Origin: Naegleria gruberi
Lineage: Eukaryota
DNA: 64,000 nt
Assembly: GCA_000004985.1 (NCBI GenBank)
Contig: GG738922.1
Direction: 5' to 3' (one strand)
Position 1 is the stretch's first letter. Every line of letters begins with the position of its first letter. The notes beneath the pieces are model-generated. The model made no database searches, was not told the DNA's origin, and saw only the letters and a program-made list of their open reading frames with translations. Below, piece after piece: positions 1,091-62,645 of this stretch. Both the position numbers and the translations under genes were made by a program.

Positions 1091-1167
1091 ATTATTTATC
1101 AAAAAAGTAAATTAATCGGAAGAACTTATTAAATTGAATAAATTTTATTAAAATTTAAAATAAAATT

Positions 1168-4541: not shown

Positions 4542-4748
4542 ATAAAATCTTTAGAAAAACCTTAATATTTGTTTAATTGACTCTTATAACCTTAATGTTT
4601 TATAATCTTTGCAAATGAAATTTAAATAATAATAATAAAATTATTGTTTTTTGAAGTATCAAACATTCAATAATTGAAAATGATGAACCTAACCACTAAT
4701 AACAATTAATAATCTGTTAATTCATGTGTGTGAATAAACTAAAAAAAA

Positions 4749-6062
4749 ATGAAAGAAATTCCCTTCACATCTATTGAAGGTATAATAGTAGGACATTGTA
4801 ATGAAGGTAATAGTGGATGTACAGTTGTGTTGAGTGAAAACTCCGAAGGATTTGGATGTGGTGTTGATTGTAGAGGAGGTGCAACTGGTACAAGAGAAAC
4901 TGATTTATTAAAACCTGGAATGTTAGTTGAAAAAATACATGGTGTATGTTTTATGTATATATTTTCTTAATATATTTAATATTTAATTAATATATTTAAT
5001 TTATTAAAAAAGTGTGTAATTTCAGGAGGAAGTGCATTTGGATTAGATGCATCTTCAGGAGTAATGAAATATTTTAGAGAAAAAGGAATTGGATATCATA
5101 CAGATATATTAAATGTTCCAATTGTTTGTCAAGCTGTTTTATATGATTTACAAATGTTAAATAAGAAAGATAATACATCATTATCATTATCATCCAATGA
5201 TAATAATAATAATAATACATCATCAACATCTAATAATCAAAATAATTCAATAATTGATTTACCAAATTATTTTGAATTAGGATATAAAGCATGTAAAAAT
5301 CCAATATCTAATGATATAAATGGAAATATAGGAGCAGGAAATGGATCTACAATTGGTAAATTATTAGGAGCTAAACATTCAATGAAAGGTGGATTAGGAT
5401 GTTATGCAATTCAAGTTGATAATGAATTAAAAATTGGTGCAATGGTTGCTGTTAATTGTTTTGGTGATGTTTATGAAAATGGAAATTTAATTGCTGGATG
5501 TTATAAAATTAATGATGTTGATTCAACATCTGATTCAACAACAACTAATACATCATTATTATCTGATTCAACTATTAGTACAAATAATACTGATGATACA
5601 TCATTTAATTCTAATAATTTTAATAATTCTTCAAATGATAAATTAGTTGAATTTCTTGATAGTGAAAAGATATTAATTAAAGAATATTTACAATCTAAAG
5701 AAGAAGCCAATGCATTTGAATTATCTAAAAGAAAGCATGATATAACAAATACAACTATTGGTATTGTTGTTTGTAATGGAATATTAGATAAATCTCAATT
5801 GAATAGAATTGCAATGATGGCGCATGATGGATATGCACGTTCAATGAAACCATCTCATACTTTATATGATGGTGATACTATTTTTGTAATCTCAACTGGT
5901 ACTATTAATGTTAAACCTCCTACTAATTTAATTGGTACTTTGGCTGCACAAGTTGTTGAAAAGGCAGTTGTTAATGGTGTTAAACATGCTCAATCCATGA
6001 ATGATTTCATTTCTTTTAATGATTTAAATAATATTATTTCTACTAATAATAGTAATAAATAA
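4749..6062 (+). CDS. Peptidase S58 / DmpA (L-aminopeptidase D-Ala-esterase/amidase) family protein, 2 exons: join(4749..4941,5026..6062)
   Basis: Exon 1 IEGIIVGHCNEGNSGCTVVLSE...GVDCRGGATGTRETDLLKPGMLVEKIH plus exon 2 GGSAFGLDASSGVMKYFREKGIGYHTDILNVPIVCQAVLYDL matches the DmpA/S58 consensus. Donor GTGTATGT, acceptor tttcAG, 84-nt intron in phase 1. Asn/Ser/Thr-rich insertions present. Confidence 0.8.
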
Positions 6063-6100
6063 TAAACTCTTAGTTGTTAATAATTTGATTCAATGATTTT

Positions 6101-7147
6101 TTAATCTATTTCAATGATGGTTATATTGTTAAGATGATTATTAGTAGTGTTGTTAATGTTCATCTTTTTAGTAATGTTAGTGTTGATAGTAGTGGTATTG
6201 AGTAGATTAAGAGTGTTATGTTTCAATATAGTTGGTAATGCTACAAGCTCATTGTCATGATGTTGTAATGTGGATTGATTGAGTTTAGAATGAATTGGTT
6301 CTTCCTCAATAACATAATAAGGAATTTCATCTTTGACTATTAGAGGTGTTGGTGATGTATGAGTCATTTCTTCACTGTTAATGTTAGTTGTATCAAAATC
6401 TTCATTATCTTCATCATCTGATTCCGATTGACCAATTAAAAGAAATAATGAATGTGTTGATGGCTTTTCAGATTGTGATATCACAATATTATTAGTAGTA
6501 TCACCATTATTGATAATGACATTAGTAGTGTTAGTAGTATTATTTGTGTTTTGTGAATAATCCAAACTATCTTCACTAGTTGATTCCTGAGTTGTATCAT
6601 TACTCTCTGTAAAGAGTGCACTCAATATTGATGAGGAAAATGATGGTACAATATCACCATCACAACCTAACAAGCCTAATGGTGGTGGAAGTGGTGATGA
6701 AGGTGGTGGTGCTTTCTCTTCTTCTTGACTTGAACCACTAATTAATGCATTATGTGGTGGTAGTGGTGTAGTTATGAATGATTTGGAAGGCTTTAATTTG
6801 TGATGTAAAGTACTATTATTCTTTCGTTTCTTTCTTGGTATTTCAATTAATTCTTCTTCATCATCAGTTTCATAATCCTTATAATTGATTCTTCTTAATC
6901 CCTTTCGTTTCGGATGTTTTCTATTGGATTCGGATTCTAATTCTTCATCTTCTTCCTCATTGGATGAATATTCTTCATCATCATAATCTGAAGAACTACT
7001 ACTATCATCATCAGAAGTGGTGTCAAAATCGTCTTGTCTTATTTGTGGTAATGTATCTTTCCTAACCCAATGATCAGAGCCTTCATTTGATGTTACTACT
7101 GCTACCTTTTTACTTGTTGTCTGACTTCTGGTTACTCTTTGAGACAT
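6101..7147 (-). CDS. Hypothetical acidic Ser/Asp/Glu-rich low-complexity protein, 348 aa
   Basis: Long ORF with ATG at 7147 and Dictyostelium-like codon usage. It has poly-acidic and poly-Ser tracts with basic KR patches suggestive of nuclear localisation. No recognisable domain. Confidence 0.6.
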   Translation of the reverse strand: MSQRVTRSQTTSKKVAVVTSNEGSDHWVRKDTLPQIRQDDFDTTSDDDSSSSSDYDDEEYSSNEEEDEELESESNRKHPKRKGLRRINYKDYETDDEEELIEIPRKKRKNNSTLHHKLKPSKSFITTPLPPHNALISGSSQEEEKAPPPSSPLPPPLGLLGCDGDIVPSFSSSILSALFTESNDTTQESTSEDSLDYSQNTNNTTNTTNVIINNGDTTNNIVISQSEKPSTHSLFLLIGQSESDDEDNEDFDTTNINSEEMTHTSPTPLIVKDEIPYYVIEEEPIHSKLNQSTLQHHDNELVALPTILKHNTLNLLNTTTINTNITKKMNINNTTNNHLNNITIIEID

Positions 7148-7308
7148 TTTATTTGTTAAGGTTTATTGTAGGTAATAAAATACACAGACTTTGTTAGCCT
7201 GTGACTAATTGTAGCCTTGTAAAATCACAGCCTTGATTGAAGGATGAATGTTCTTGTGAATGATGGAAATTATTGCAATCAGTGCCATCCATCAATTCTA
7301 AAAAAAAA

Positions 7309-10300
7309 ATGAGTATTAATAATAGTATTGTTACTACACCCACTAAATCATCAGCATCATCACCAACTGATGGTACATCATTAACACCATCTCCATCATC
7401 ATTATCAACACCTCGGAATAATGTTAGTAGTAGTAGTATTACAACACCATCATCTACAACATCATCAACTTTATCAACTCCATCCACTCCATCTTCATCT
7501 TCTAGAATGACAACAATAGTTTCATCAGCTCCTATTATTAAAAAACTACCAAAACATTTACAAGATACCTTAAAATCTGGAACTAATATATCATCACTCT
7601 CTGATTGTATTAAAGAATTAATAGAAAATGCACTTGATGCACAAGCCACTAATATTGAAATTCAATTACAGGGTAAAGAATGTATCATTATTAAAGATAA
7701 TGGTCATGGTATTCATCAGGATAATTTTGAAACTCTATGTAAACGTTATTATACTCATAAATTTATGAATCATTTTAATACTTTTAATGATAATGATAAA
7801 AATGTAAATAATACCACTGATAATTTAAATAATAATGAATCATCATCTAATAATCATTCTCATAATAATAATGAAAATAATAATTATTACTATGGATATA
7901 AAGGAGAAGCATTAAATAGTATATGTAATTTAAGTAAACAAGTACATATTAAAACTAAATATGGAGATGAATCTGAATTAGGAACATATTTAATATATGA
8001 TACAAGAGGTGAAATTGTATCTAAAACATTAATTAGAATGAATAGAGGTACAATAATAACAATTCAAGATTTATTTTCAACCATTCCAGTTAGAAAGAAA
8101 TGTTTTGTTAATCAATTTGATTCACAATTTACAGATTTAAAAGAAATGTTAAAACAATTAACTTTAATACATTTTAATATTAGATTTACTATTAAGGAAG
8201 GTGAAAAAATATCATTTATTAAAAATGGAAATATTAAAAATTTAAAACAATCATTAAATACTATATTTGGAATACCTAATTTATATGATCATTTATATTT
8301 ATATTCAAATATAATATTAAATGAAGAAAATGAAAATAATATATTTTTAAATAATTTAAATTTATTTAATAATGAATTTTTATTACAAATTCATGTTCCA
8401 AATTATTCAAGTATTGTAAAATCAAATCAAATTGATTCAAATGAAAAGGAAATTAACAAATTTTTTACCACAACTAAACCTTTTATTTATGTTAATAATA
8501 GAATGATTACTAAATATGAAGAAATTCAAAAAACAATGAAAAATATTTTTTCAAATTTTNNNNNNNNNNNNNNNNNNNNNNNNNNNNNNNNNNNNNNNNN
8601 NNNNNNNNNNNNNNNNNNNNNNNNNNNNNNNNNNNNNNNNNNNNNNNNNNNNNNNNNNNNNNNNNNNNNNNNNNNNNNNNNNNNNNNNNNNNNNNNNNNN
8701 NNNNNNNNNNNNNNNNNNNNNNNNNNNNNNNNNNNNNNNNNNNNNNNNNNNNNNNNNNNNNNNNNNNNNNNNNNNNNNNNNNNNNNNNNNNNNNNNNNNN
8801 NNNNNNNNNNNNNNNNNNNNNNNNNNNNNNNNNNNNNNNNNNNNNNNNNNNNNNNNNNNNNNNNNNNNNNNNNNTAATGATTATTCTGATCAAGTTATTG
8901 ATAATCAATTAAATAATACAAGTTTAATTTCTAATAATAATAATACAAGTAAATTAATTTCTAATAATACAAGTTTAATTTCTAATAATAGTAGTAGTAG
9001 TATTATTACACAATCATCACCTTCTTCTTCTATTATGAATAATAGCAATAATAATAATGAAAGTGGTAATCATTATACATCTAATTATAGAACACCATCA
9101 CCTCAATCTAAAAGCCTTATTACCACTCTTCATAATAGTAATCATTCTAATAATACAACAACACCATCACCACCTATATTTAATAAGAGAAGTGTTATTG
9201 TAAATAATAGTGGTGGTAGTAGTGGAAGTGGTAGTGGTGGTTATAGATCTACTATTAGTGGAGGTAGTAATAGTACATCTAATTATAGTACTAATAATAA
9301 TAATAATAATAGTAGTAGAGGTAGACATATAGAATTAGATGATTCATTATTGGATGCTATGGATGATTTAATAGGTGTACCTATTTTACCAAAAAATAAT
9401 AATAATAATTCAACAATAGATTCATCTATTAATAATAATATTACTAATAATAATGGAAATAAATCTAATAATAATAATATGAATTTAAGTGATGATGAAG
9501 ATACAATAATTAAAACAGGTTTAAAAAATACATCTAACAAACAAATATTAATAACTAATAATAATAATAGCAATGATAATAATAGTACTATTAAAACAAT
9601 AGTACAACCCATTGATATAAATAAATATAAAAGTACAACACCTAATAATTCTAAAAAAAGAAAAACAATTCAAACTAAATTAACATTAGATTCATCTCAA
9701 CAACAACAACAACAATATAAATATAAAAATATAGAAATTGAAAATATTAATGAAGAATTAATATTTAAAAAACGTAAAATTTATTCAAATAATGAAAAGA
9801 AAAATTTAAAATTTGATAATGAAAATTATAAAATTAGTAAAAATGATATATTTACAAATATAGAAATTATAGGAGAATTAGAAAATAAAATAGGAATAAT
9901 ATATCATTTAAAATATTTTAAAATATATTATATTAATTTAAATATAATTAAAAGTGATTGTATTTTTAATAATTTAATGAATACATATTCATTTAAAGAT
10001 TCAATTATACCTTTACAACAACCAATTAATTTATTATTATGTAAAAATGAATTATCAAATAAGAATTTAAAATCAATTTGTGTTAAACCTGAATATCAAA
10101 ATATTTTTGAAATGAATGGTTTTAAAATTGAATTTGAAAAACAACCTTTACCAAATGAACCTACTAGAAAGAAAATTACAAAATTAAATTTAATTGGAAT
10201 TATTAATAATAATTCTTTTGGAACAAGAGAACATTATAATTATGGTTTACAAGATTTTATTGAAATTTTACAAAAAATTGAAACTTTTGAAAAGGATTTA

Positions 10301-10663
10301 TTAGAAAATGAAATTATTAAGAATATTTTAAAGGAAAAGAAGGCAACTAAATCTGAATTAATTTCGCAAGCATCAATTCAATTTAGACCCAATACAATGA
10401 TTGAATATTTTAAGAATACTGCTAAACATACTTCTTCATCTTTAGGTACAGATAGAAAATCAATTCATGAAATTTTAATGGACTTGAAAACAACTTGCTT
10501 CTTGAAATTACATCAATTTATGAGTAGACATACAGATGAAAATTTTGATGAAATTATTAATGATATTACTGGTTATTTTCATCCAATGGATTTGGGAGGT
10601 ACTAGTAGTGATACTAGTGCTGATAATAATGGAGATGTACCAAATATTGAAGAAATGATTTAA
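7309..10663 (+). CDS. MutL-family DNA mismatch repair protein (MLH/PMS-like), interrupted by scaffold gap
   Basis: The N-terminal GHKL ATPase motifs IKELIENALDAQATNIEIQL and IIKDNGHGI match MutL. ORF 7273..8877 starts at TTG; the first in-frame ATG is at 7309. The reading frame stays open on both sides of the N-run and continues to 10663. Extensive Asn-rich insertions. Confidence 0.75.
8570..8874. other. Assembly gap (305 N)
   Basis: Run of N characters inside the MutL-like CDS. Confidence 0.99.
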
Positions 10664-13600
10664 TCTTTAATAAATTGAATAGTCTTTTGCTTTGGAACTT
10701 GTGGTGATGGATTACTTGGTCTGAGTACTGGTAATGGATTGAATTTGATAATTTCCTGTGATGAAGAGCTTATCGATGAGGAAGGAGCTGAAAATTTGAG
10801 AATTGATTTTCTTATCATGTTCGTATTATTGGATTGTGCAGCTATTGTTGTTGATTGAGATGGAGAGAATAATTTTGGATTAAAATCATCTGCAATTAAA
10901 TCCTTTCTTGTTGATTCATTCATATCAGCCCATTTCAATGAATTATTCTGATTATCTCTTTTCAATAATTTTAATTTGGAATTATAACTTGGTGAACTAA
11001 CTTCTGTTGGGAATTCAAAATCGTCAAATTTACGTTTTCCTAATTGATTTAATTGATTCATTAATGTATTATTTCTAGTTGTTGGTGTATTAATTAATGA
11101 TTGATTTGAAATTGAACTAATATTTGACTTGGTTGGTGTTATAGAACTTTCACTTATTGAACTCAATGAATTTAATAATGGAACAGGTGAAATAAAAGAT
11201 GAATCTAAATTTGATGATGTTTTCATTGGTGTTTGTTCTCTCTTTGAAATTCTACTCTTAGGTGAAAGTAATAAAGATGAGGATGATAAATCATTTGATT
11301 GTTTTTGTGTTCTAGTTGTTGTTGAACTATTAATCATCATTCTATTTGAAACTAATTTAGAAATACTTGGTGATAAAATAAAACTATCTTCCTTTCTAGT
11401 ATTACGAGTATTAAATGATGGTTTTGAAAGAGGTGATGGTGAAAACATTGAAAATAAACCCAATTCTTTTGTTGATGGAATTGTTTTAGGTGTTCCAATT
11501 AAATCTAATTTTGAAATATCAAATTCAGAATTTCTTCTAGTAATTACTTTTGGTGAATTAGTACTACTAATATCATTCATATTATTATTATTTGTAATAA
11601 TAGTATTATTATTATCAATAGTTGATTTCTTTTGAATCCAATCATTTTGAATTTGTTCAATTGCTAAATCTTGTTGATTTAAAATTTCAATTTGATTCTT
11701 AATTTCATCATCTGTAATTTTATCATCAATATCAAGTAAAATCTTTTGAGTTTCCTCTTTTTGTTTTTTAATTAAAGGTTCAAAATCTAAAACTCTACAT
11801 GTAGAAGTATCAAATAAATCTTTTTCATCCACTTGTTCATCATCTTGTACATCTTCCACTTGTTTTAATTCTTCATTGAAATATTTTAATAAATTATTAT
11901 TACTTTCAAACTCATTTGATGATGCTATATTACTAATACTACTAATATCTGTTAATATATTATTATTATTATTATCAATATTATTATTATTAGCAGTATT
12001 ATTATTAGAATTATTATTAGTATTATTCAAATCATTCTTATGATTCATACTATTATCAATATTTACAACCATTGATGACTCTATAATACTATCATCACCC
12101 AATTCTTCTAATACATCTTCTGTTGTTGTTGTAATTGCTTGTGCTACTTCGCCTGTACTAATATCATCAATTACATCAAGAATATTATCCTCCTCTTCTT
12201 CTTCTTTCTCTGATTGTTTCGTTTGACTATTATCACTTAAAGATGATGAATCTGATAATGGTGATTCAGATATGTTTGCTTCAATATCTTCATTTGTTGC
12301 ACTTGTTATTTCCTTAATGATTTCATCAATTTCATCTGTTTGATCATTCTCTTCTTCAGAGAATTCTTCAATAATCTTTGGTTCTTGTTCTTCAATAATA
12401 TTTTCAAGTTCATTGTCTTCCTCTGAAGATTCCTCAATAACCTTTGGTTCCTGTTCTACAATGATATCATCATCACTTTCTTGTTGTTCCGATTTAGATT
12501 CAACAATTTGTTCAGTAGTTGTCTCTGGAGTTTCATCTTCACTATCAACCATTTCAGGAGTTTCATCAGTTTCATTTTCAATAACAACTTGCTCTTCTGC
12601 TACTTGTTCTTCATTATCAACAACTTGCCCTTCAACTACTTGTTCTTCAGTTGTAGAGTGAGCTATTACTTCTTCTTCTACTACGACCGATGGAGGCGAT
12701 AATATTGGAATTTCTTTATCCACTTCATTATTATTATCATTAACAATATTAGATGATGATTCAATTGATTCTTCGTCTTTTTCAATTGTTGTTGTTGTAG
12801 GTGATGTTACAGTAGTATTAATATTACTATCAATATTAATAATTTTACTTTCTTTAGCAAATTCTTCTTCTATTGTTGGTATTGTTGATTCACTTTCATA
12901 TTCTTCTCTGTTTCTCTTTAATGAATTTTCAGATTCAATAATGGTAGTATTATTATTATTATTAGATTCATTATCATCATCAAATTTAATTTCATTCAAT
13001 TCATCTTCATTTTTCACTATATCAATATTATTATTTACTACTACTTGTTCATTCAACTCCTCTATAATCACATGATCAGTATTTTCTACTTGTTCTTCTT
13101 GTTTCTGAATTAATTCTTGTTTTAATAAATTTAAATTTAATTTATAATCCTTTTCAATTAAATATTTTCTCATCATTGATTGTAAAGTTAAAATTGTATT
13201 TAAATCATTTTTTAAATTTACTTGTTCCATTTTACTTTTTAATAAAGATTGAATTATTAAAGTTGATTCTTTACAATCATTTAAATATTTTCTATTCGAA
13301 TGTCCTTCAATTAAATTTTCTAAATTATTTAATAATTTTAATTTTTCATTCTTTTCTAAATTAGTAAATAATCTAATATGATGTCCATTAAATATTGATT
13401 GTAATGTTGTTATACTTTCATTTAATTGTTTTCTGTTATGTAAAACTAATTGATTTCTATATAAGGATTGAATATTTTCTGAAAATTCTAATTTTGAATT
13501 AAATTCCTTTTTAATTAAATAATTTCTAATTAATGATTGTAAAATAATAATATTATTATTAATATTATTAAAATTAGTATTTTCTATTAAATTTCTAAAT

Positions 13601-14558
13601 TTAGATTGTAATATTATTACATTGAATTTTTCATCGTCTAAATTTTTACGTTCCAAATAATTTTTACATAAATTTTGTAATGAAATTAAATGTTCAACTT
13701 GTTTATCCATTTCATGAATTGAATTATATTGTCTAATTATAGATTGAATACTTGTTATATTAATTTCCTTAGAATTTTCCAAACTTGTTGATTCCGATAC
13801 TGATTCTACCATATTACTAGCATTATTATTTATAGTAGTTTCAATTGTAGTTGGTGTTGATGATATTTCTGTTGTATTAATTAATTCTTCATCATTTGAA
13901 GGCTTTGAATTTTCATTTTCAATTTTTTCTTCCGAATTTTCATTACTTGAATCATTAATTAATTGTTCATCGCTTGAAGGCTTTGAAATTTCCTTATTTT
14001 CTTCTTGATTAGATGATTCCTGTTGTTGATTATTTTCATCTTGTTCTTGCTTAGACGATGATTCATCTTGTTGTTTGTTGATGGTTCTAATTCTGTTTGT
14101 TCTTCATGTTCAGAACTATTTTCATCTTCCTGTTTAGATGAAGAAGAGGAAGCCTTTGGTTGTTCTACTTTTTTTCTTCTCCTTGATGATTGAAGCCTAG
14201 ATCTAACAGGTGTTTTAATAATCTTTTCTTCTTCCTCTGGTTCGGTATTTGCAGTCAAGTCTTCATTTACACTTTTAGATTGATTATTCTTCGTTTTATC
14301 AATTTTCTTACGTTTTTGACGTTCCTTTACTGGTGTTTTTAAAATGTTTGAAATTAATGATGAGGCTGATGATAATGTATTAGAAGAGGAGGCATTTGTT
14401 GTTGTACTATTAGATGTTTCATCATTGGTTGTTGATGTGGTTGAGGAAGAAGAAGTAGCATTTGCCTCGGTATTTGCTGTTGTTGTATTTGATGACCTTG
14501 TATCATCGGAAGGTGATGAAGGAGATAATAATTTTTGTCTTCTAGTTTGTACTGGCAT
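10660..14558 (-). CDS. IQ-motif-containing, acidic low-complexity protein; two ORFs (14558..13959 and 13812..10660) probably one gene disrupted by a frameshift
   Basis: ORF 10660..13812 carries at least five IQ-like calmodulin-binding motifs (ILQSKFRNLIE, LQSLIRNYLIKKEF, LQSMMRKYLIEKDY) followed by long acidic/Ser-rich tracts. The frame that contains Met-13812 stays open upstream to about 14100 with the same acidic repeat style (SKPSSDEQLINDSSNENSEEKIENE...). It overlaps the 3' out-of-frame tail of ORF 13959..14558. Confidence 0.5.
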
Positions 14559-20710: not shown

Positions 20711-22287
20711 TTAATATCTGTAGTGATCAGCCTTGTATGGACCATTTTGAGAAACACCAATGTAATCAGCTTGGGAGTCAGTCAACTTAGTCAATCTAGC
20801 ACCGAGCTTTTCCAAATGGAGTCTAGCAACTTCTTCGTCCAAAACCTTTGGCAAAGTGTAAACACCAACAGCATAAGTATCCTTCCACAAGGAGATTTGA
20901 GCCAAAGTTTGATTAGTGAATGAAGCAGACATGACGAAAGCTGGGTGACCAGTAGCACAACCCAAATTGACCAATCTACCTTGAGCCAACAAGAGGATGG
21001 TGTGACCATCAGGGAAGACGAATTGATCGACTTGAGGCTTAATGTTAATTTCCTTAACACCTTCACAGGTCTTCAAACCGAGGACATCGATTTCATTGTC
21101 AAAGTGACCAATGTTACAGATGATAGCAGTATCCTTCATCTTCTTCATGTGATCAAGAGTAATGATATCCTTGTTACCAGTAGCAGTGACGTAGACATCA
21201 GCAGTTTCCAAACAATCTTCAATAGTCTTGACAGTGTAACCAGCCATACAAGCTTGGAGAGCATTGATTGGATCAATTTCAGTAACAATAACTCTAGCAC
21301 CTTGACCCTTCAAAGCTTCAGCACATCCCTTACCGACATCACCAAAACCACAGACAACACATTCCTTACCAGCCAACATGACATCAGTAGCTCTGTTCAA
21401 ACCATCCAACAAGGAGTGTCTACAACCATAAATGTTATCGAACTTGCTCTTAGTGACAGAGTCGTTAACGTTAATAGCAGGGAACAACAAAGTACCTTGC
21501 TTTTGCATAGCATACAATCTGTGAACACCAGTAGTAGTTTCTTCAGAAACACCCTTAATGTGTGGAACAATAGCATGGAAGAAACCTGGTTCTTCCTTCA
21601 AAATTCTCTTCAACAAATCATTGACAATTCTCAATTCTTCAACACCACCATCACTTTCCAAAATGCTGGCATCCTTTTCGGCTTGATAACCTCTATGGAC
21701 CAACAAAGTCATATCACCACCATCATCAACAATCAATTGTGGACCCATGTTTGGACCGAACTTGAGAGCCTTCCAAGTACATTCCCAATATTCAACCAAA
21801 GTTTCACCCTTCCAAGCGAAAACTGGGATGTTAGCAGCAGCAATAGCAGCAGCAGCATCATCTTGAGTTGAGTAAATGTTGCAAGAACACCATCTAATGT
21901 TACCACCAACAGTCTTCAAAGTTTCAATGAGGACAGCAGTTTCAACAGTCATGTGGAGAGAACCAGAGATTCTGACATTGTTGAGTGGCTTTTCTTCACC
22001 GTATTTAGCTCTACAAGCCATAAGACCTGGCATTTCCTATATATTAAAATAATGATAATTGATTGTGTGGTGATTATTATGAATATCCATCGGCAAGGGA
22101 AGTTGATGGAAATTGAGCATGATCAAATATTGGATCAGTAGAAATAACAAAATTGTTAGAAATCATTAAAATTATTCTCTATAAAACAAACCTTTTCGGC
22201 CATTTCAATTCTCTTACGACCCAAGGAAGCTTGGCTGATATCCTTGACTTCATAATCAGTAGCAGTAACAGTGACGGTTTGGCTCAT
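20711..22287 (-). CDS. S-adenosyl-L-homocysteine hydrolase (adenosylhomocysteinase), long form; join(22192..22287,20711..22036)
   Basis: Exon 1 is [32 protein letters not shown]. Donor GTTTGT, 155-nt intron, acceptor tatatAG. Exon 2 is [18 protein letters not shown]...[10 protein letters not shown], a near-complete match to SAHH including the NAD-binding motif [10 protein letters not shown]. Strong translational codon bias (TTG, AAG, GGT, GCT, AGA). Confidence 0.95.
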
Positions 22288-56487: not shown

Positions 56488-57954
56488 TTATTCATCATAG
56501 TCTTCATCTTCTTCATCTTCATCGTTGGAGTAAACTTCATCTTCGTCATCTTCATCAAAGGTTGGAATCTGCTCGGGAGTTGTGTTATTTTGTAAAGATT
56601 TCAAACCCTCCAAATCATGCAAGTAAATGGAAAGCAGTTCATCATTAGCCTCAATACATGAGTTGTGGTTTGGATTACTCGAGTTGATTGTTTTCACAGA
56701 AGGCATTGTAAAGCATTGAGATTGTGAAAATGGACAAATGTACTTCTTGTCAATGAATTCTTCATACTTGTTTTCCTTATTCTTGACAGCTCTAGATTCG
56801 TCATCATCTTCATCGTTTCTGTTAGAGTTCATTAGGGGTGAGCGAATTTGTACTGTTCCAGCTTCCTTCTTCTTGTTAAATAAGGTGTATTCATTGTAAG
56901 GACCTGGAGCATTTAGGAAAATGATAGTGTCTCTTTTTGAAAGAGAATCAGACCACATGGTCAAGTACTTTCTTGTCTTGAGTTTAAAGTGTTCTTCTTG
57001 CATTCTACGAATTTGACTACCAACGGACTTGGCTCTCTTACTTTGATCTTTGGAAACTTGTCTTTTTCCTTGCTTTTTTCTAGTGACATACTTGTGGAAA
57101 GTTTTGTGTACAGTGGCGACCATTGGCTCTGCATTCTTTTGCTTTCTTCCATTTTTCTGGAACACACAACCACTGAAAGAACCACCATGACAGAAAATAA
57201 CACAAAATCCCTTCTCCAAAAAGTGATTCTTCAAATCTCTCAAAAAGAATTGGAAATCGTGATGATAATTCAAAGACATGATCATCTTGATACGATCTGT
57301 TGAATTTTCAAACACTTCTCTCAGCTCAGTGTCCATTCTCTGGTTGATTGAATGATTTTTACAATCTTCATAAATATACTTGAAAATTTCATAATAAATC
57401 TTGAAACATGAAATAAATAGTGGAATTTGTGTATCAACTTGCAAAACAATTTTTGTCTGATTTACGCCTGAAATTGAATGAAACTTGCAAGGAATCTTCA
57501 AAAGTAATGATGATGTTGAACAGAGTGGATTCTTACCATAGAAGGAATTTTCAACACCTTCCTTCATCAATTCATATAATTGATGATGAGCAGATACTAA
57601 TTCATACCATTGCTTGTTCACCAGAATTAATGAAAGTAATTCTTCAGATATTTTCTTTTCGGAAGCCTTTTTCTTCTTCTTTTTCTTTTTTACTTCCACT
57701 TCATTATCATCATAAATTGAAAAATCCATCAAATATAATAATATATGATTAATCACTCTCCGATTATGAGACAAAATTAAACCCTTTTCTTTACGTTCTT
57801 CCATAAACATGAATGTTTTTTGTGAGGGAGATTGATCAAAATCCTCATCATCATCGTCCTTGTATTTGATCCTCTCTCGCATCAGAGTAAATTGTTTACG
57901 GTCATAGGTTTTATTCACTCGATCGACAAAATTTGATAAATGTTCAAAACTCAT
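56488..57954 (-). CDS. VLRF1-domain protein (Vms1/ANKZF1-like peptidyl-tRNA hydrolase of ribosome quality control) with F-box-like N-terminus and acidic tail
   Basis: VIFCHGGSFSGCVFQKNG...VHKTFHKYVTRKKQGKRQVSKD...GSQIRRMQEE aligns to the Vms1/ANKZF1 catalytic core (HAGrFAGaiF ... HKTFHRYTVRAKRGGSQ ... LRRYNE). The N-terminal LLYLMDF...ISEELLSLILVNKQWYELV is F-box-like. ATG at 57954 in aaaaaaaATG context. Confidence 0.65.
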   Translation of the reverse strand: MSFEHLSNFVDRVNKTYDRKQFTLMRERIKYKDDDDEDFDQSPSQKTFMFMEERKEKGLILSHNRRVINHILLYLMDFSIYDDNEVEVKKKKKKKKASEKKISEELLSLILVNKQWYELVSAHHQLYELMKEGVENSFYGKNPLCSTSSLLLKIPCKFHSISGVNQTKIVLQVDTQIPLFISCFKIYYEIFKYIYEDCKNHSINQRMDTELREVFENSTDRIKMIMSLNYHHDFQFFLRDLKNHFLEKGFCVIFCHGGSFSGCVFQKNGRKQKNAEPMVATVHKTFHKYVTRKKQGKRQVSKDQSKRAKSVGSQIRRMQEEHFKLKTRKYLTMWSDSLSKRDTIIFLNAPGPYNEYTLFNKKKEAGTVQIRSPLMNSNRNDEDDDESRAVKNKENKYEEFIDKKYICPFSQSQCFTMPSVKTINSSNPNHNSCIEANDELLSIYLHDLEGLKSLQNNTTPEQIPTFDEDDEDEVYSNDEDEEDEDYDE

Positions 57955-58410: not shown

Positions 58411-60944
58411 ATGAAGTTATCCTCAAGATATTCTCTTGCCATTGCCTTGGCAACGATTCTTGCCGTCTGTTTGACATGTTCTTGGTCACTTCGTGCAGTT
58501 CACGCCTCTCGTCAACCTATTCGTTACGAAGCTTTCCAAGAATTATTCGAACCTACTTCTGATGCTTGGTCAAACGAAGCATTTATGGTAGAAATGGCTT
58601 CACATCCATCCTTTGATGCTCATTTAGATAACGTTCTTGCTGATTTACAAGATTTTGAATTTGATATCGAGTCAGATGATGCCATTCTCGAATACATGTC
58701 AACTTTATCTGATTCACAAGCTAGAGCTGAATGGAGAAGATTTAGAAGAGCTTTTAGAAGAGTTGGAAGAGCTTTCAGAAAGGTAGCAAGAGGTGTTGTA
58801 AAGGTTGTTAAAAAGTATGGAGCTATTATTGCACCAATTGCTTTGACAATTGCTACTGGTGGTCTTGGTGGTAAGTTTATTATTGTTATTGTTATTGGAG
58901 GATTGATTCAAATTTTGAATATTGAATTTTAAAATAACCTTCCTTCTCATTGGATTGTTAATAATTCTGTCAATTACTATTTTTGGAATATAGCTCCTTC
59001 TTTGGCTGGAAGTTTGGGAAGTATTGGAAGTACTGTTGCAAAGGGAGCTGCCATGTTGGCTAAAGTTTCTTCTATTGCTTCAAAGGCTAACATGGTCATT
59101 GGTGGACTCAATGCTGTTACAGGTTTGTTATCTTTAATTTTCTTTTTATGGTAACAATTGAAACATTTTGAAAATTAGGTGGTAAATCTAAACTCCTCAA
59201 CAAGCTTTCCAATTTTTCCAATAAGGTTACCAATGTTTTGGGTAAGGGTGGTATGATCTTGAATGCAGGTGGTTCTATTGCTAAGGGACTTTCTGGATTG
59301 AGTAATTTGAGTGTTAAGGGAATTGCTGCTCAACTCAAACCAGGAAATTTATTCAAGGGAGCTACATTGTTGGAGAAGGGTACAAACTTTTTGAACAAGG
59401 CCTCTGGATTTATTAAGAAGGGACAAGAAATTACCTCCTCATTGAATAACTTGACAGGTAAGTATTTTAATTGATTATTTCTTATGTAACGTTGATGATG
59501 TGTTATAGGTGGTAAAATCAAGGCACTTAATAAGATTTCTTCAGGTTTAGACAAGGCCCAAAAGATTGCCGGAATTGGATCTGGAGCTTTGAATGGATTG
59601 GGTAAAGGATTGGATTCTCTCAAGAATTTGAAGAATTTTAAGAATATTGATATGAAGAAGTTGTTAACTTCTGAAAATATCAAGAAGGGTTTAGGTAAAC
59701 TTGATTCCACTATTGGAAAGACTAAGGATATCCTTTCCAGTGTTAATGAAGTCACTGGTGGAAAGAGCAAAAAATTGAACAAGATTATTAATGCTCTCGA
59801 TAAGACTCAAAATATTGTTTCTGTTGGTTCAAACGCAGTTGACAGAATTAAAGGTATTAAGAATTCAATTGCTGATTTGAAGAATTTCCAAAGCTCAAAG
59901 ATTAAGGATCTCTTCACCAATGAAGGAATTCAAAAGGCATTGGGTAAGCTCGATAATTCCTTGGGTAAAGGAAAAGATTTCCTCCAACAAGTCAATGCAA
60001 TTAATGGTGGAAAGAGTAAGACTTTAAATAAGTTAATTCAAAAATTAGAAAAGGGTCAACAAGCAGTTGCTATTGGAAGTACTGCTGCTAAAAGATATGA
60101 AGGAATCAAATCATCAATTGAGAAATTATCCAACATGAAGTCAGGTGATTTGAAGAATCTCTTGAATTTTGAAAATGTTCAAACTGGTTTGGGAAAGGCC
60201 AAGAATGCTATGGCTAACGCTGAAGATTTTGTTTCTCAACTCAATACATTCACTAATGGAAGAAGTAAGACTTTGGTTTCCCTTGTTGAAAAGTTAAAGA
60301 AGGGTCAAAAAGTCACATCTGTCACATCTAAAATTTTAGATGGAGCCAAGGGTATTAAGGGAAGTCTTGAACAATTGAAGAATCTCAAGAAGGAAGACAT
60401 GCAAAAGGTATTAGATGCTGAACATCTTCAAGGAGTTTTGAACAGAGTTGCTGGTGCCTTCTCAAAGGGAGAAAATATTGTCTCTGAATTGAACGAAATT
60501 TCCAATGGAAAGAATAAGAATCTTGCCAAGTTATTACAATCCTTGAGAAAGGGTCAAATGATTGCCAATACAGCCTCATCTGGTGTTGGTACTTATAAGA
60601 GCGCTAAGAATTCAATTGAAGAAATGAAGAAACTCAAAGGAAAGAATTTGGAAGAAATCTTAAAATCAGACGAATTGAATGAAGTTATTGATTCATGGAG
60701 AGGAACCATTAAACAAGGAAAGGAATTTACTTCTCAATTTAAGGAATTGAAGAATGAATTAAAGAAGAAAGAAACTCCAATTGAAGATGAACCAGCTCCT
60801 GTAGATGATGCTCAAGGAGAACCATCCAATGAAGAACCAGTTGATAGTGCACAAGGAGAACCAGATCAATCATCACCAGTTGAAGAACCAGTTGATAACA
60901 ATGAAGAACCAGCTGATTTTGATCCATCTACTGCTATGGGATAA
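58411..60944 (+). CDS. Secreted Arg/Lys/Gly-rich tandem-repeat protein (about 767 aa), 4 exons: join(58411..58870,58994..59122,59179..59457,59509..60944)
   Basis: Signal peptide MKLSSRYSLAIALATILAVCLTCSWS; acidic pro-region; cationic amphipathic RRFRRAFRRVGRAFRKVARGVVKVVKKYG; Gly/Ala-rich hydrophobic glycine-zipper stretch. Then six repeats of about 84-93 aa, each starting GGKSK/GRSK/GKNK...LNKLI...KGQ..V..GS.A..R.KGIK.SI..LKN, and an acidic Pro/Glu tail. Three introns (GTAAGT/GTTTGT..AG) are all in phase 1, at the Thr-Gly junction that precedes the Lys-rich repeats. Confidence 0.7.
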
Positions 60945-61220: not shown

Positions 61221-62645
61221 ATGACCATGATTCGATCAATCACCAGAAGAAAACATCAAGAGGAAGCATTCTACAACTCTCTCAAGCAATTTCCAACCGA
61301 AATTATACTCTACATTCTGTCATTTGCCTTTCCAGATTCTGCTTTGATAAGATTTAAATTTTCATATCCAAACTTTAAAATTTGCAACCTTATTAGAACA
61401 GTTACTATATCACCAGAGGCTAACATTGCTGGTCTGAAACGATATCCCTTCCTAGAAACTGTTGTAATTACAAGAAATGGACCCAATGATGATGATGTAT
61501 TGAGTGAACGTGTACATCCAACCAAGGTTGTCGATATTACTCAAGATGGAATTGATATGACAGATGAACGGGTAGAATATCCAGAAACTGTTAAGAATTT
61601 CGAAGTAGAGGGTGTTGACTTGGAAGAGATTCAAACATTTCCTCCAAATATGGAAAGACTTTCAATAATTTGCAATTATCACCATAGATTCAAGCTTCTC
61701 CAACTTTCAAATCTTAAAACGTTGAAATTACATAGAGTGAAAATAATAGGTACTAATCTCGATTTTAGTAGTATTGAGGATTTGGAATTGGTTAATATTC
61801 AAATATCATATCCACTTCGTTGGAGAGCTGTTGGTTCTTCAAAACCTGTGCTAAAAATTGTAATTTCTCCAAATACCAGGAGGCTTGTGCTTTTTGATTT
61901 CAAAATTATCAATATCCTTTTTGCAAAATATCAACTACTGGATCATTTGAAATATCTGCATGTTGAAGGTAATGAAACAAAAAAGGTAAATCTTACTAAA
62001 TTAGATGCGTCAGAATTAGAGACCTTGATAATTAATAGAATGACCTCTGTAAATCTTAATCTTAATTGTTACAACAAGTTGAGAAAACTTCAAATTACCA
62101 AATGCAAGAATATAGAACAGGTGAAAGGTATTGATACATTGAGTCAATTGGAATGTGCTGTACTGAAGAATAGTCCTTTTGAATCATCTCACTTTGAAAG
62201 CATGTCATCTTTAGCCCAATTGAAATTTGTTGACCTATCCTATACTAAGTGCACTAACTTTGATTCCATCAAGACCATTTTTAAATTACCAAAGTTAGCT
62301 GTATTGTTGTGTGTCTCAGAGCGTTATGTTAATGTTCACGACACTAAATCCAACAAGTTACTGATGAGAAAAGGTTTAGAGAACCACAGCAATCTCAAAC
62401 TCTTCACTTTTAATGCCTCATGGATTAAGGAGAAGGAAAAGGGCAAGGTTTATCTTGAACTTCCAATGGATTCTGAGGAGAGAGCACAAGTTATTGATCT
62501 ATTGTTTAACAAGCCAACACATCCAAGAGTGGACGAAACTTTCCAAGTCCCACCCACAAACTTTTGGGATAATTTTCATTACAAAGACAATGACTATTAT
62601 TATACCAATAGTATCCTTGATAAATATAAATCACAATTCAAATAA
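61221..62645 (+). CDS. F-box / LRR-like protein
   Basis: ORF 61188 starts at TTG; the first ATG is at 61221. FPTEIILYILSFAFPDSALIRFKFSYPNF is F-box-like, followed by repeated L..L.L motifs. Confidence 0.65.
   Translation: MTMIRSITRRKHQEEAFYNSLKQFPTEIILYILSFAFPDSALIRFKFSYPNFKICNLIRTVTISPEANIAGLKRYPFLETVVITRNGPNDDDVLSERVHPTKVVDITQDGIDMTDERVEYPETVKNFEVEGVDLEEIQTFPPNMERLSIICNYHHRFKLLQLSNLKTLKLHRVKIIGTNLDFSSIEDLELVNIQISYPLRWRAVGSSKPVLKIVISPNTRRLVLFDFKIINILFAKYQLLDHLKYLHVEGNETKKVNLTKLDASELETLIINRMTSVNLNLNCYNKLRKLQITKCKNIEQVKGIDTLSQLECAVLKNSPFESSHFESMSSLAQLKFVDLSYTKCTNFDSIKTIFKLPKLAVLLCVSERYVNVHDTKSNKLLMRKGLENHSNLKLFTFNASWIKEKEKGKVYLELPMDSEERAQVIDLLFNKPTHPRVDETFQVPPTNFWDNFHYKDNDYYYTNSILDKYKSQFK

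What the first reader, a model, noticed from the sequence alone, without database searches (positions are those of the whole stretch)
58411..60944. Secreted cationic repeat polyprotein with AMP-like and glycine-zipper segments and phase-1 symmetric exons
A four-exon gene encodes a signal peptide, an acidic pro-region, an Arg-rich amphipathic helix (RRFRRAFRRVGRAFRKVARGVVKVVKKYG), a roughly 60-aa Gly/Ala-rich hydrophobic stretch (AIIAPIALTIATGGLGGAPSLAGSLGSIGSTVAKGAAML...) and six Lys-rich repeats of about 84 aa (GGKSKxLNKLI...KGIKxSIxxLKN), ending in an acidic Pro/Glu tail. All three introns are phase 1 and fall at the Thr-Gly junction that starts each Lys-rich repeat module, which points to exon duplication; the later repeats are fused into one exon. 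There are no cysteines and no obvious homolog. The architecture resembles antimicrobial or pore-forming polyproteins, or LEA/apolipoprotein-like amphipathic repeat proteins, but the combination is not a described family to my knowledge.
Basis: seen in the sequence. Interest (0 to 1): 0.8.

Follow-up and report, generated by a model that had tools for sequence, protein, structure and literature searches.

The report
Naegleria-only secreted cationic helical repeat protein
This is a real, already annotated but unstudied gene of the amoeba Naegleria gruberi. It encodes a probably secreted, very basic, all-helical repeat protein whose front end looks like a masked antimicrobial peptide; the family occurs only in Naegleria, including the brain-eating N. 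fowleri, and its function is untested.

Summary
The four-exon gene at 58411-60944 (+) is real. Its 767-aa product is identical to the deposited Naegleria gruberi model XP_002669783.1 (NAEGRDRAFT_82029, "hypothetical protein"). The splice model is backed by a paralog with the same three phase-1 introns and by a N. fowleri ortholog that encodes all three junction peptides without interruption.

- signal peptide;
- acidic pro-region;
- +12 amphipathic helix;
- 60-aa Gly/Ala/Ser hydrophobic stretch;
- six repeats with an 83-aa period;
- acidic Pro/Glu tail.

- Only introns 2 and 3 lie at a Thr|Gly-Gly-Lys boundary.
- Two cysteines occur, both in the signal peptide.
- Homologs exist: two N. gruberi paralogs, a N. 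fowleri ortholog and Naegleria-like metagenome copies. None was found outside that group, and there is no Pfam or PDB match.

The repeats show heptad-like hydrophobic periodicity (3.46), not the 11-mer pattern (3.67) of LEA or apolipoprotein repeats. A strict glycine zipper is absent. Nothing supports cleavage into a polyprotein.

Best reading (about 0.4): a secretory-pathway, membrane-active defence or attack protein. Its acidic propiece masks a helix-hinge-hydrophobic-tail module that converges on BMAP-28/SMAP-29. Function is unproven. AlphaFold models were poor (pLDDT about 42).

The parts
58411..60944 (+). Whole gene (ATG to TAA), N. gruberi NAEGRDRAFT_82029; 4 exons, 767 aa
   Evidence: The product is identical to deposited XP_002669783.1.
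58411..58870 (+). Exon 1 (aa 1-153 plus the first base of codon 154)
   Evidence: The donor is G|GTAAGT.
58871..58993 (+). Intron 1, 123 nt, phase 1. It splits Ala154 inside the hydrophobic stretch, not at a repeat boundary.
   Evidence: It contains an in-frame stop (the exon 1 ORF ends at 58932). The homologous intron is present in paralog 62234.
58994..59122 (+). Exon 2, 129 nt, phase 1-1 symmetric (aa 154-196). It encodes the second part of the Gly/Ala/Ser stretch and is weakly similar to the last helix of a repeat.
   Evidence: The BLASTP second HSP aligns this segment of the N. fowleri ortholog with a repeat end. The repeat HMM gives a partial hit (iE 2.8e-4) in the corresponding N. fowleri region.
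59123..59178 (+). Intron 2, 56 nt, phase 1, between Thr196 and the first Gly codon of GGKSK (start of repeat 1)
   Evidence: The same position and phase occur in paralog 62234.
59179..59457 (+). Exon 3, 279 nt, phase 1-1 symmetric; equals repeat 1 (93 aa)
59458..59508 (+). Intron 3, 51 nt, phase 1, between Thr289 and the first Gly codon of GGKIK (start of repeat 2)
   Evidence: It is conserved in paralogs 62234 and 64326.
59509..60944 (+). Exon 4: repeats 2-6, the acidic tail and the stop codon
58411..58506 (+). Predicted cleavable signal peptide (aa 1-32: n-region K2/R6, 17-19-residue hydrophobic core, VHA|S site). It contains the protein's only two Cys.
   Evidence: Sequence inspection. Approximate Hessa-type dG is about -1 kcal/mol. 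The motif is conserved in homologs. No SignalP run was possible.
58507..58728 (+). Acidic pro-region (aa 33-106; net -14) with the conserved core SHPxFDxHLxxxLAD..FDIExDDxxLxYxSTLSD
   Evidence: Identity is 47-78% to paralogs and ortholog. dN/dS is 0.15.
58729..58818 (+). Cationic amphipathic helix (aa 107-136, EWRRFRRAFRRVGRAFRKVARGVVKVVKKY; net +12; hydrophobic moment up to 1.10). It is built from 7-aa (21-nt) units.
   Evidence: (21-nt tandem periodicity at 58735-58792). Its length varies from about 25 to 50 aa among family members.
58819..59121 (+). Gly/Ala/Ser-rich hydrophobic stretch (aa 137-196, interrupted by intron 1). It has small-xxx-small runs and is among the best conserved segments.
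   Evidence: 59-78% identity; dG +3 to +5, not a typical stop-transfer helix
59122..59456 (+). Repeat 1 (aa 197-289, 93 aa; net +11, 15 Gly); interrupted by intron 2 after its first base
59457..59756 (+). Repeat 2 (aa 290-372, 83 aa); interrupted by intron 3 after its first base
59757..60005 (+). Repeat 3 (aa 373-455, 83 aa)
60006..60254 (+). Repeat 4 (aa 456-538, 83 aa)
   Evidence: Paralog 64326 has a phase-1 intron at the start of its repeat 4.
60255..60503 (+). Repeat 5 (aa 539-621, 83 aa)
60504..60764 (+). Repeat 6 (aa 622-708, 83 aa plus a 4-aa extension)
60765..60941 (+). Acidic Pro/Glu-rich tail (aa 709-767; net -17) ending in the conserved P-[SA]-T-A-[MA]-G

Best explanation
The gene encodes a secretory-pathway protein specific to the Naegleria lineage. 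The mature protein is Cys-free, very basic (pI about 9.6) and predicted all-alpha. I think it most likely acts on membranes or other anionic microbial surfaces, as a defence or attack effector of a bacteria-eating amoeba.

Proposed mechanism (shown = the sequence features; inferred = everything they are said to do):
1. A cleavable signal peptide takes the protein into the ER and vesicular system.
2. The conserved acidic propiece (net -14) sits next to a +12 amphipathic helix and neutralises it during transport, as in many cationic peptide precursors.
3. Once unmasked, by proteolysis or a change of pH or ionic conditions, the helix binds anionic lipid surfaces.
4. The adjoining KKYG hinge and the Pro-containing Gly/Ala/Ser hydrophobic stretch then insert into the bilayer. 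This stretch is too weakly hydrophobic to be a constitutive transmembrane anchor.
5. The six 83-aa Lys-rich repeats are heptad-type helix-turn-helix hairpins. They keep the hydrophobic element soluble, add polyanion-binding avidity, and may promote oligomerisation.
6. The acidic Pro/Glu tail partly balances their charge.
For: - Gene model and identity to the deposited protein.
- The N. fowleri ortholog has no intron at any of the three junctions and encodes all three junction peptides contiguously.
- Purifying selection between paralogs: dN/dS 0.21 at dS 0.75, and 0.10-0.35 in every segment.
- The same architecture occurs in two N. gruberi paralogs, N. fowleri and a divergent Naegleria-like metagenome species.
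- The cationic helix keeps net +11 to +19 and hydrophobic moment 0.87-1.14 in all five, despite R-to-K replacement and 7-aa-unit length changes. Benchmark antimicrobial peptides on the same scale give 0.51-0.89 and +3 to +9.
- There is local similarity to BMAP-28 and SMAP-29: KKYG, then II-x-P-I (Smith-Waterman score 53; 0 of 2000 shuffles reach it; peptide sequences verified).
- An independent HMM hit of the cationic helix to an unrelated eukaryotic polyprotein that looks like an antimicrobial-peptide precursor, in which acidic spacers alternate with cationic peptides (P0018, E 3e-4).
- Approximate dG for the hydrophobic stretch is +3 to +5 kcal/mol, against about -1 for the signal peptide.
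- The hydrophobic stretch and repeats 1-2 are the most conserved segments.
- Heptad-like periodicity of 3.46 in all four proteins, roughly 6-12 times the strongest shuffled peak.
- All-helical prediction with the repeat-boundary motif in inter-helix turns.
- Codon bias: Nc 33.5, with a strong AAG and GGT/GGA preference. Most other nuclear-type ORFs in the window give 36-46, three give about 33, and the S-adenosylhomocysteine hydrolase (SAHH) housekeeping gene gives 27. This hints at substantial expression.
- From established knowledge: Naegleria already uses secreted or lysosomal pore-forming peptides made from multipeptide precursors (naegleriapores; cited).
Against: - There is no functional, localisation or expression data for any family member.
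- UniProt ID A0A6A5BIA2 of the N. fowleri ortholog is absent from the complete secretome tables S5 and S6 of PMC11964265. The protein is therefore not an abundant constitutively released trophozoite product, or is retained, or is stage-specific.
- No processing site is identifiable between the propiece and the helix.
- The BMAP-28/SMAP-29 resemblance was chosen post hoc, and the KKYG motif is not conserved in N. fowleri or the metagenome species.
- AlphaFold confidence is poor (pLDDT 41.5 and 42.2), so no fold supports the model. Foldseek found nothing.
- Two-thirds of the protein, the repeats, has no demonstrated role in this scheme.
- No signal-peptide or transmembrane predictor could be run. 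The dG scale values were taken from memory.
Confidence: 0.4

Rival explanations
1. It is an extracellular structural, adhesive or cyst-wall matrix polycation. The secreted Lys-rich coiled-coil hairpin array would bind acidic polysaccharides or substrates and self-assemble, and the N-terminal module would serve in assembly rather than lysis.
For: - The signal peptide, the very high pI (9.5-10) and the Cys-free repeat array with heptad periodicity are typical of fibrous or coiled-coil assemblies.
- The protein is absent from the soluble trophozoite secretome of N. fowleri, which fits stage-specific or matrix-bound deposition.
- Strong codon bias fits an abundant structural product.
Against: - It gives no reason for a conserved acidic propiece next to an extremely amphipathic +12 helix and a conserved hydrophobic stretch.
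- There are no lectin, chitin- or cellulose-binding or cross-linking (Cys/Tyr-rich) features, and no Pfam match.
- The few N-glycosylation sequons are not conserved.
Confidence: 0.2
2. It is a LEA-, apolipoprotein- or perilipin-like amphipathic repeat protein. It would be disordered in solution, fold onto lipid or dried surfaces, and protect membranes during encystment or desiccation, or carry lipid.
For: - Lys/Gly/Ser/Asn-rich, low-complexity, helix-prone tandem repeats.
- Very low AlphaFold confidence despite uniform helix prediction, as is often seen for conditionally folded proteins.
- A weak perilipin Pfam hit (E 0.12).
Against: - The hydrophobic periodicity is 3.46 (83/24), with essentially no power at 11/3 = 3.67, the value that defines the 11-mer repeat class. 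This holds in all four proteins.
- No LEA, apolipoprotein or perilipin Pfam model reaches threshold in any paralog.
- The hydrophobic stripe is narrow (a/d positions only).
- The protein carries a signal peptide and a propeptide/cationic-helix module unknown in those families.
Confidence: 0.12
3. It is a true polyprotein. The precursor would be cut at the conserved T-G-G-K-S-K junctions, and at the propiece boundary, into an N-terminal peptide plus six cationic hairpin peptides of about 83 aa, by analogy with naegleriapore multipeptide precursors.
For: - The junction motif is the most conserved element of each repeat.
- Each unit would be cationic (net +5 to +11).
- Naegleria processes other multipeptide precursors (established knowledge; cited).
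Against: - The junction has no dibasic or other recognisable convertase site, and no conserved dibasic site lies between the units.
- In the low-confidence AlphaFold models the Gly-Gly motif lies in a helix-helix turn.
- The hydrophobic pattern stays in register across the whole array (a single sharp 83/24 harmonic), as expected for one continuous folded array.
- Repeats are individually orthologous across paralogs (r1 to r1, and so on), which implies position-specific roles.
Confidence: 0.1
4. It is an integral membrane protein. The Gly/Ala/Ser stretch would form one or two transmembrane helices that anchor the protein, placing the repeat array on the cytosolic or lumenal face as a membrane coat.
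For: The 60-aa uncharged stretch is predicted helical and flanked by a highly basic segment. It is among the best conserved segments.
Against: - The best 19-residue windows give about +3 to +5 kcal/mol on an approximate Hessa-type scale and Kyte-Doolittle means of about 1.1, below usual transmembrane thresholds.
- With a cleaved signal peptide, the +12 helix would lie on the lumenal side of such an anchor, against the positive-inside rule.
Confidence: 0.1

Closest known systems
Alpha-helical cathelicidin peptides BMAP-28 and SMAP-29 (a cationic helix, a Gly hinge and a hydrophobic tail, made as precursors with a propiece)
   Same: - A strongly cationic amphipathic helix is followed by KKYG and a Pro-containing Ile/Val-rich tail (KKYGAIIAPI against KKYGPIIVPI).
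- Charge and hydrophobic moment are in or above their range.
- It is made behind a signal peptide and a non-cationic propiece.
   Different: - There is no cathelin domain, no Cys and no homology. I read the resemblance as convergence, and it is absent in N. fowleri.
- The module is embedded in a 767-aa protein.
- The hydrophobic part is 60 aa, not about 10.
- Release by proteolysis is not shown.
Naegleriapores and amoebapores (saposin-like pore formers made from multipeptide precursors)
   Same: They come from the same organisms and are secretory or lysosomal, repeat-built precursors with a membrane-active, antibacterial and cytolytic role. This is a functional analogy only.
   Different: The saposin-like (SAPLIP) fold has six conserved Cys per unit. 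The mature protein here is Cys-free, and no saposin Pfam model matches.
Amphipathic repeat proteins of the 11-mer class (LEA group 3, exchangeable apolipoproteins, perilipins, alpha-synuclein)
   Same: Lys-rich, low-complexity, helix-forming tandem repeats that are poorly modelled by AlphaFold.
   Different: - The periodicity is 3.46, not 3.67.
- The unit is an 83-aa helix-turn-helix, not 11 or 22 aa.
- No family model matches.
- It carries a secretory signal and a propeptide module.
Glycine-zipper membrane segments (for example the VacA N-terminus; from my own knowledge)
   Same: A Gly/Ala/Ser-rich, weakly hydrophobic helix with small-xxx-small runs along one face.
   Different: The defining GxxxGxxxG motif is absent from all four full-length family members.
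N-PFP, the 66-kDa membrane-associated pore-forming protein of N. fowleri (Young and Lowrey 1989; to my knowledge never cloned)
   Same: The predicted mature N. fowleri ortholog is 65.3 kDa. It has membrane-active features and comes from the same organism. N-PFP is described in the review read.
   Different: Only the size coincides. There is no sequence, composition or antibody link, and the original paper could not be read.

Membership tests
Cationic alpha-helical host-defence peptide precursors (a functional class, not a homology family) | N-terminal signal peptide | tested here: met
   The n/h/c regions and small residues at -3/-1 are conserved in five members, by inspection. The hydrophobic core scores about -1 kcal/mol. 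No SignalP run was available.
Cationic alpha-helical host-defence peptide precursors (a functional class, not a homology family) | Anionic propiece adjacent to the cationic peptide | tested here: met
   aa 33-106 have net -14 and lie directly before aa 107-136 with net +12. The arrangement is conserved.
Cationic alpha-helical host-defence peptide precursors (a functional class, not a homology family) | Cationic amphipathic helix with a high hydrophobic moment | tested here: met
   Hydrophobic moment is 0.87-1.14 and net charge +11 to +19 in five members. Benchmark peptides give 0.51-0.89 and +3 to +9.
Cationic alpha-helical host-defence peptide precursors (a functional class, not a homology family) | Proteolytic release of the peptide, and antimicrobial or membranolytic activity | not testable with these tools
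   This needs mass spectrometry of the native protein and peptide or liposome assays.
Cathelicidins | Cathelin-like proregion with four conserved Cys | tested here: not met
   No cathelicidin Pfam hit. The mature protein has no Cys.
Saposin-like pore formers (naegleriapore, amoebapore) | Saposin B-type domain with six Cys | tested here: not met
   No SapB Pfam hit. There are no Cys outside the signal peptide.
LEA group 3 / apolipoprotein / perilipin 11-mer repeat proteins | 11-residue (3.67 residues per turn) amphipathic periodicity | tested here: not met
   The spectral peak is at 3.45-3.46 in four proteins. Power at 3.67 is 0.0-0.8, against 24-43 at the peak.
LEA group 3 / apolipoprotein / perilipin 11-mer repeat proteins | A match to the family profile above the curated cut-off | tested here: not met
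   Perilipin scores 11.8 bits against a cut-off of 33. No LEA or apolipoprotein hit appears in any paralog.
Glycine-zipper membrane motif | GxxxGxxxG | tested here: not met
   The motif is absent from all four full-length proteins. Only [GAS]xxx[GAS]xxx[GAS] runs are present.
Polyprotein (multipeptide precursor) | Conserved processing sites between the units, and released products | tested here: inconclusive
   The junction TGGKSK is conserved but not dibasic, and no conserved dibasic site lies between units. Released products cannot be tested here.
Repeat array built by exon duplication | Symmetric same-phase introns at equivalent positions of successive repeats | tested here: met
   Phase-1 introns lie in the first Gly codon of GGK at repeats 1 and 2 in this gene and in paralog 62234, and at repeats 2 and 4 in paralog 64326. 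Caveat: the codons ACA GGT form a CAG|GT proto-splice site, so repeated intron gain is not excluded, and N. fowleri lacks all of these introns.

The most novel reading that the evidence does not exclude
The family would be a new, cysteine-free, all-alpha class of pore-forming or cytolytic effector specific to Naegleria. A masked helix-hinge-hydrophobic module would be delivered on a coiled-coil repeat scaffold. Its N. fowleri member (FDP41_007167; predicted mature mass 65.3 kDa, pI 10) would be the 66-kDa membrane-associated pore-forming protein N-PFP described in 1989, whose gene, to my knowledge, was never identified.
Probability: 0.07. Interest if true: 0.8.

Novelty: new variant of a known kind. 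Interest (0 to 1): 0.45.

Why it matters
Naegleria feeds by killing bacteria, and one species, N. fowleri, destroys human brain tissue. The known lytic effectors are saposin-like naegleriapores and proteases. A 66-kDa membrane pore former reported in 1989 has, to my knowledge, never been assigned to a gene.

This family occurs only in Naegleria and is conserved under purifying selection. It has three copies in N. gruberi and one in N. fowleri, and nobody has studied it. Its N-terminal module is a testable candidate membrane-active element. If active, it would add a second, structurally unrelated class of amoebic membranolytic proteins and offer a genus-specific marker or target.

It is also a clean example of a repeat array whose intron positions in paralogs record growth by exon duplication followed by intron loss.

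If it turns out to be a structural or cyst protein, it is simply a lineage-specific orphan of modest interest.

Tried and rejected
1. Pfam scans of this protein, both paralogs and the ortholog gave only sub-threshold hits that differ between proteins (HAMP, COG4_N, Ribos_L4_asso_C, Perilipin, Dad2 and others). I rejected them as coiled-coil or compositional noise.
2. PDB sequence searches found nothing meaningful. I used the full protein, an 18-sequence repeat profile and the cationic/hydrophobic segment. The best result was E 0.04, to a Lys-rich stretch of ribosomal protein uL4.
3. AlphaFold2 was run on the full length with a 2-row alignment, then on repeats 2-4 with an 11-row alignment that used other repeats and paralogs as pseudo-homologs. 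Mean pLDDT was 41.5 and 42.2. I use only the secondary structure.
4. Foldseek of the second model against the PDB gave no hit below E 0.8 and TM-scores below 0.3, to generic BAR or coiled-coil proteins. I discarded these.
5. An exhaustive HMM search of 1.84 billion representative proteins found only Naegleria-type sequences, one low-complexity false positive (P0017) and one analogous polyprotein that looks like an antimicrobial-peptide precursor (P0018).
6. Literature searches for every locus tag and accession found nothing. Supplements of three N. fowleri secretome or vesicle papers also found nothing. The two vesicle papers hold almost no supplementary text, and the whole-proteome table S1 of PMC11964265 is truncated.
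7. The N-PFP paper could not be read, and a follow-up search gave no further properties.
8. A tblastx synteny check between the N. gruberi and N. fowleri loci found no convincing conserved neighbours.
9. There is no paralog elsewhere in the 64-kb window.
10. The antisense 150-aa ORF at 59330-59782 and the other short ORFs in the region are mechanical by-products of the list.


Full report
**What is there.** The window is AT-rich eukaryotic DNA, about 0.33 GC over most of its length. The sequence at 58411-60944 (+) reads as four exons: 58411-58870, 58994-59122, 59179-59457 and 59509-60944. The three introns are 123, 56 and 51 nt, all GT..AG and all phase 1. Read-through of each intron ends the reading frame early; the exon ORFs stop at 58932, 59154 and 59474. 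The spliced product is 767 aa. It is letter-for-letter identical to the deposited Naegleria gruberi protein XP_002669783.1 / NAEGRDRAFT_82029 / UniProt D2W1G0, annotated only as a hypothetical protein. The gene is therefore already in the databases, but no paper in the searchable library mentions it, its paralogs or its ortholog.

**Is the splice model right without transcript data?** Yes, with high confidence.
- The N. fowleri ortholog (FDP41_007167; 637 aa; 41% identity over 571 aligned positions) has a single, different intron, phase 0, inside the cationic helix. It encodes the peptides spanning all three N. gruberi junctions without interruption (GGAGAPVLG, LNAVTGGKSKF, LNLITGGKSKF).
- N. 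gruberi paralog NAEGRDRAFT_62234, recovered on a metagenome contig, has the same three introns at the same codon positions and phases (104, 56 and 49 nt).
- Between these two paralogs dS is 0.75 and dN/dS is 0.21. Every segment lies between 0.10 and 0.35. These are old, selectively maintained coding genes, not alleles or pseudogenes.

**Anatomy.**
- *aa 1-32, signal peptide.* Basic n-region, a hydrophobic core of 17-19 residues, and a small-x-small site. The site is conserved in type in all five family members (VHA|S, VQA|S, VNG|Q, AFA|Q, TYA|Q). The protein's only two Cys lie here.
- *aa 33-106, acidic pro-region.* Net charge -14, with a well-conserved core (SHPxFDxHL..LAD..FDIExDD..L.Y.STLSD).
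- *aa 107-136, EWRRFRRAFRRVGRAFRKVARGVVKVVKKY.* Net +12. The hydrophobic moment reaches 1.10 on the Eisenberg scale, the highest in the protein. The DNA shows a 21-nt tandem periodicity at 58735-58792. The segment changes length in 7-aa steps between relatives, from about 25 aa in N. fowleri to 45-50 aa in the two paralogs. It is Lys-rich rather than Arg-rich in a divergent metagenome species. Charge (+11 to +19) and moment (0.87-1.14) are nevertheless preserved. Both are at or above the values that BMAP-28, SMAP-29, LL-37, magainin 2 and melittin give on the same scale.
- *aa 137-196, Gly/Ala/Ser-rich uncharged stretch.* Together with repeats 1-2 this is the most conserved part of the protein (59-78% identity). 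It has runs of small-xxx-small residues but no strict GxxxGxxxG in any member. On an approximate Hessa-type scale, with values from memory, its best windows score +3 to +5 kcal/mol, against about -1 for the signal peptide. It therefore looks like a conditional membrane-inserting element, not a constitutive anchor. Its second half (exon 2) weakly resembles the last helix of a repeat.
- *aa 197-708, six repeats.* The first is 93 aa and the others keep an exact 83-aa spacing, at 25-47% pairwise identity. Each repeat is orthologous to the same-numbered repeat in the paralogs, so the array predates the gene duplications. Both AlphaFold runs predict each repeat as two long helices with the conserved (T/N/S)GG(K/R)SK motif in the turn. 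Net charge and Gly content fall from repeat 1 (+11; 15 Gly; 2 acidic residues) towards repeats 4-6 (net +5 to +7; 7-8 Gly; 7-10 acidic residues).
- *aa 709-767, acidic Pro/Glu tail.* Net -17. It is poorly conserved apart from the terminal P-[SA]-T-A-[MA]-G.
- *Mature protein.* 78.6 kDa, pI 9.6, Cys-free, with few and unconserved N-glycosylation sequons.

- Intron 1 splits Ala154 inside the hydrophobic stretch. Only introns 2 and 3 fall between Thr and the first Gly of GGK.
- The junction peptide is GGLGAPS, not GGLGGAPS.
- Two Cys exist, both in the signal peptide.
- The repeat period is 83 aa, not 84.

The exon-duplication idea gains support. Paralog NAEGRDRAFT_64326 keeps the repeat-2 intron and has an additional phase-1 intron in the first Gly codon at the start of repeat 4. 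This suggests an ancestral pattern of one intron per repeat, with later losses; N. fowleri has lost all of them. There is a caveat: ACA-GGT forms a CAG|GT proto-splice site, so repeated intron gain cannot be excluded.

**Relatives.**
- An exhaustive HMM search of 1.84 billion representative proteins, using the N. gruberi plus N. fowleri profile, returned 14 hits. Twelve are Naegleria-type sequences or fragments. One is a low-complexity false positive.
- The last hit is an unrelated eukaryotic polyprotein that looks like an antimicrobial-peptide precursor. It matches only the cationic helix.
- Cluster look-ups show three paralogs in N. gruberi (82029, 62234, 64326), one gene in N. fowleri, and further copies in soil, marine and other metagenome or catalogue data. 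Among these is a complete gene in a 39%-GC Naegleria-like organism.
- No Pfam model reaches threshold, and the weak hits differ between paralogs.
- PDB sequence and profile searches are empty.
- AlphaFold confidence is poor (mean pLDDT 41.5 and 42.2), and Foldseek finds nothing.

**What the repeats are not.** The hydrophobicity spectrum of the repeat region has one dominant peak at 3.45-3.46 residues (83/24). It appears in all four full-length proteins and is roughly 6-12 times the strongest peak of shuffled sequences. There is no power at 3.67. That is heptad-type packing (a/d stripes), as in coiled-coil hairpins and helical bundles. It is not the 11-mer pattern that defines LEA group 3 proteins, apolipoproteins, perilipins and synucleins. 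Nothing supports cleavage into a polyprotein either. The junction motif is not dibasic, no conserved dibasic site separates the units, and the hydrophobic pattern stays in register across the whole array.

**Most likely mechanism (confidence about 0.4; sequence features shown, function inferred).** I read this as a secretory-pathway, membrane- or polyanion-directed effector.
1. The acidic propiece masks the +12 helix.
2. Once unmasked, the helix binds anionic surfaces.
3. The hinge (KKYG in N. gruberi) and the Pro-containing hydrophobic stretch then insert.
4. The Lys-rich coiled-coil hairpins keep the hydrophobic element soluble and add avidity or oligomerisation.

The N. gruberi sequence GVVKVVKKYGAIIAPIAL resembles the bovine and ovine cathelicidin peptides BMAP-28 (…RAWKKYGPIIVPIIRI) and SMAP-29. 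Both peptide sequences were verified in the literature. The Smith-Waterman score is 53, reached by 0 of 2000 shuffles. This comparison was chosen post hoc, and the motif is not conserved in N. fowleri. I therefore read it as convergence on a helix-hinge-hydrophobic-tail design, not as homology. Codon bias (Nc 33.5) is stronger than in most other nuclear-type ORFs of the window (36-46; three give about 33; the SAHH housekeeping gene gives 27), which hints at substantial expression.

Against the model:
- No family member has any functional or localisation data.
- The N. fowleri ortholog is absent from the complete secretome tables of PMC11964265.

**Rivals.**
- A structural, adhesive or cyst-matrix polycation (0.2).
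- A LEA- or apolipoprotein-like protectant (0.12, weakened by the periodicity).
- A true polyprotein (0.1).
- A membrane-anchored coat protein (0.1, weakened by the low hydrophobicity and the positive-inside rule).

**Most novel reading not excluded.** The family could be a new Cys-free, all-alpha class of Naegleria pore formers. The N. fowleri member (predicted mature mass 65.3 kDa) would then be the 66-kDa membrane-associated N-PFP of Young and Lowrey (1989), which is described in the review read and, to my knowledge, was never cloned. Only the size coincides, and the original paper was not available. I give this about 7%.

**Verdict.** It belongs to an uncharacterised family of secreted, cationic, helical repeat proteins found only in Naegleria, with an N-terminal module that looks like a masked antimicrobial peptide. 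It is not a member of any described family. The LEA/apolipoprotein, strict glycine-zipper and polyprotein labels are not supported. It is a reasonable experimental candidate, but its function remains inferred from sequence alone.

Noticed in passing
window 1-14000: The left end of the window differs sharply in composition. GC is 0.15-0.29, and the long ORFs have GC3 of only 0.05-0.10 (one, at 6101-7147, reaches 0.18), against 0.20-0.37 elsewhere. These ORFs carry LRR, HATPase_c_3/HATPase_c, Peptidase_S58 and IQ domains (2892-4541, 5064-6062, 7309-8877, 9035-10663, 10660-13812). Possible causes are a foreign or recently acquired segment, a distinct compositional domain, or an assembly join.
   Followed up: partly
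window 58735-58792: The coding DNA of the cationic helix has a 21-nt (7-aa) tandem periodicity. The same segment differs in length by multiples of about 7 aa between paralogs and species. It seems to evolve by unit slippage while keeping its charge and amphipathicity.
   Followed up: yes
L003 590-680 (N. gruberi paralog NAEGRDRAFT_64326): This paralog has an extra phase-1 intron in the first Gly codon of GGKSK at the start of repeat 4. The window gene has no intron at that position.
   Followed up: yes
P0021 (NAEGRDRAFT_62234), N-terminus: The deposited model of this paralog starts 16 codons upstream (MLDNQVTSEKPSIKKI-) of the Met that aligns with the start of the other family members. That upstream start would bury the signal peptide, so it is probably mis-annotated.
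   Followed up: partly
P0018 / P0027 (ENA contig of 4.98 Mb, unidentified eukaryote): This is an unrelated secreted polyprotein. Acidic spacers alternate with two kinds of cationic peptide (for example RWRFGRRIRKFFKKFGKKIRKIGRGVCKAIY), repeated about four times. It looks like a precursor carrying several antimicrobial peptides and matched only the cationic helix of the query.
   Followed up: no
window 20711-22033 (-): An S-adenosyl-L-homocysteine hydrolase gene with the strongest codon bias in the window (Nc 27.1, GC3 0.37). I used it as an informal benchmark for a highly expressed gene.
   Followed up: partly
window 56488-57954 (-) and 61221-62645 (+): These are the immediate neighbours. The upstream, divergently oriented gene has a VLRF1 (Vms1/ANKZF1-type peptidyl-tRNA release factor) domain. 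The downstream ORF has no Pfam match. No conserved neighbourhood with the N. fowleri locus was detected.
   Followed up: partly
L002, L003 (ENA ERZ929261, run ERR1078381, PRJEB11402): A public assembly labelled as a metagenome holds contigs whose coding sequence is 97-100% identical at protein level to the N. gruberi paralogs (L002). These let me read paralog gene structures even though the reference genome was not indexed.
   Followed up: no
L001 6343-6559 and L004 about 3693-3735: The N. fowleri gene has one intron, phase 0, inside the cationic helix. The divergent Naegleria-like species also has an intron there, apparently phase 1 by my reading of the junction. Neither matches any N. gruberi intron position, so intron positions in this family turn over quickly.
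   Followed up: partly
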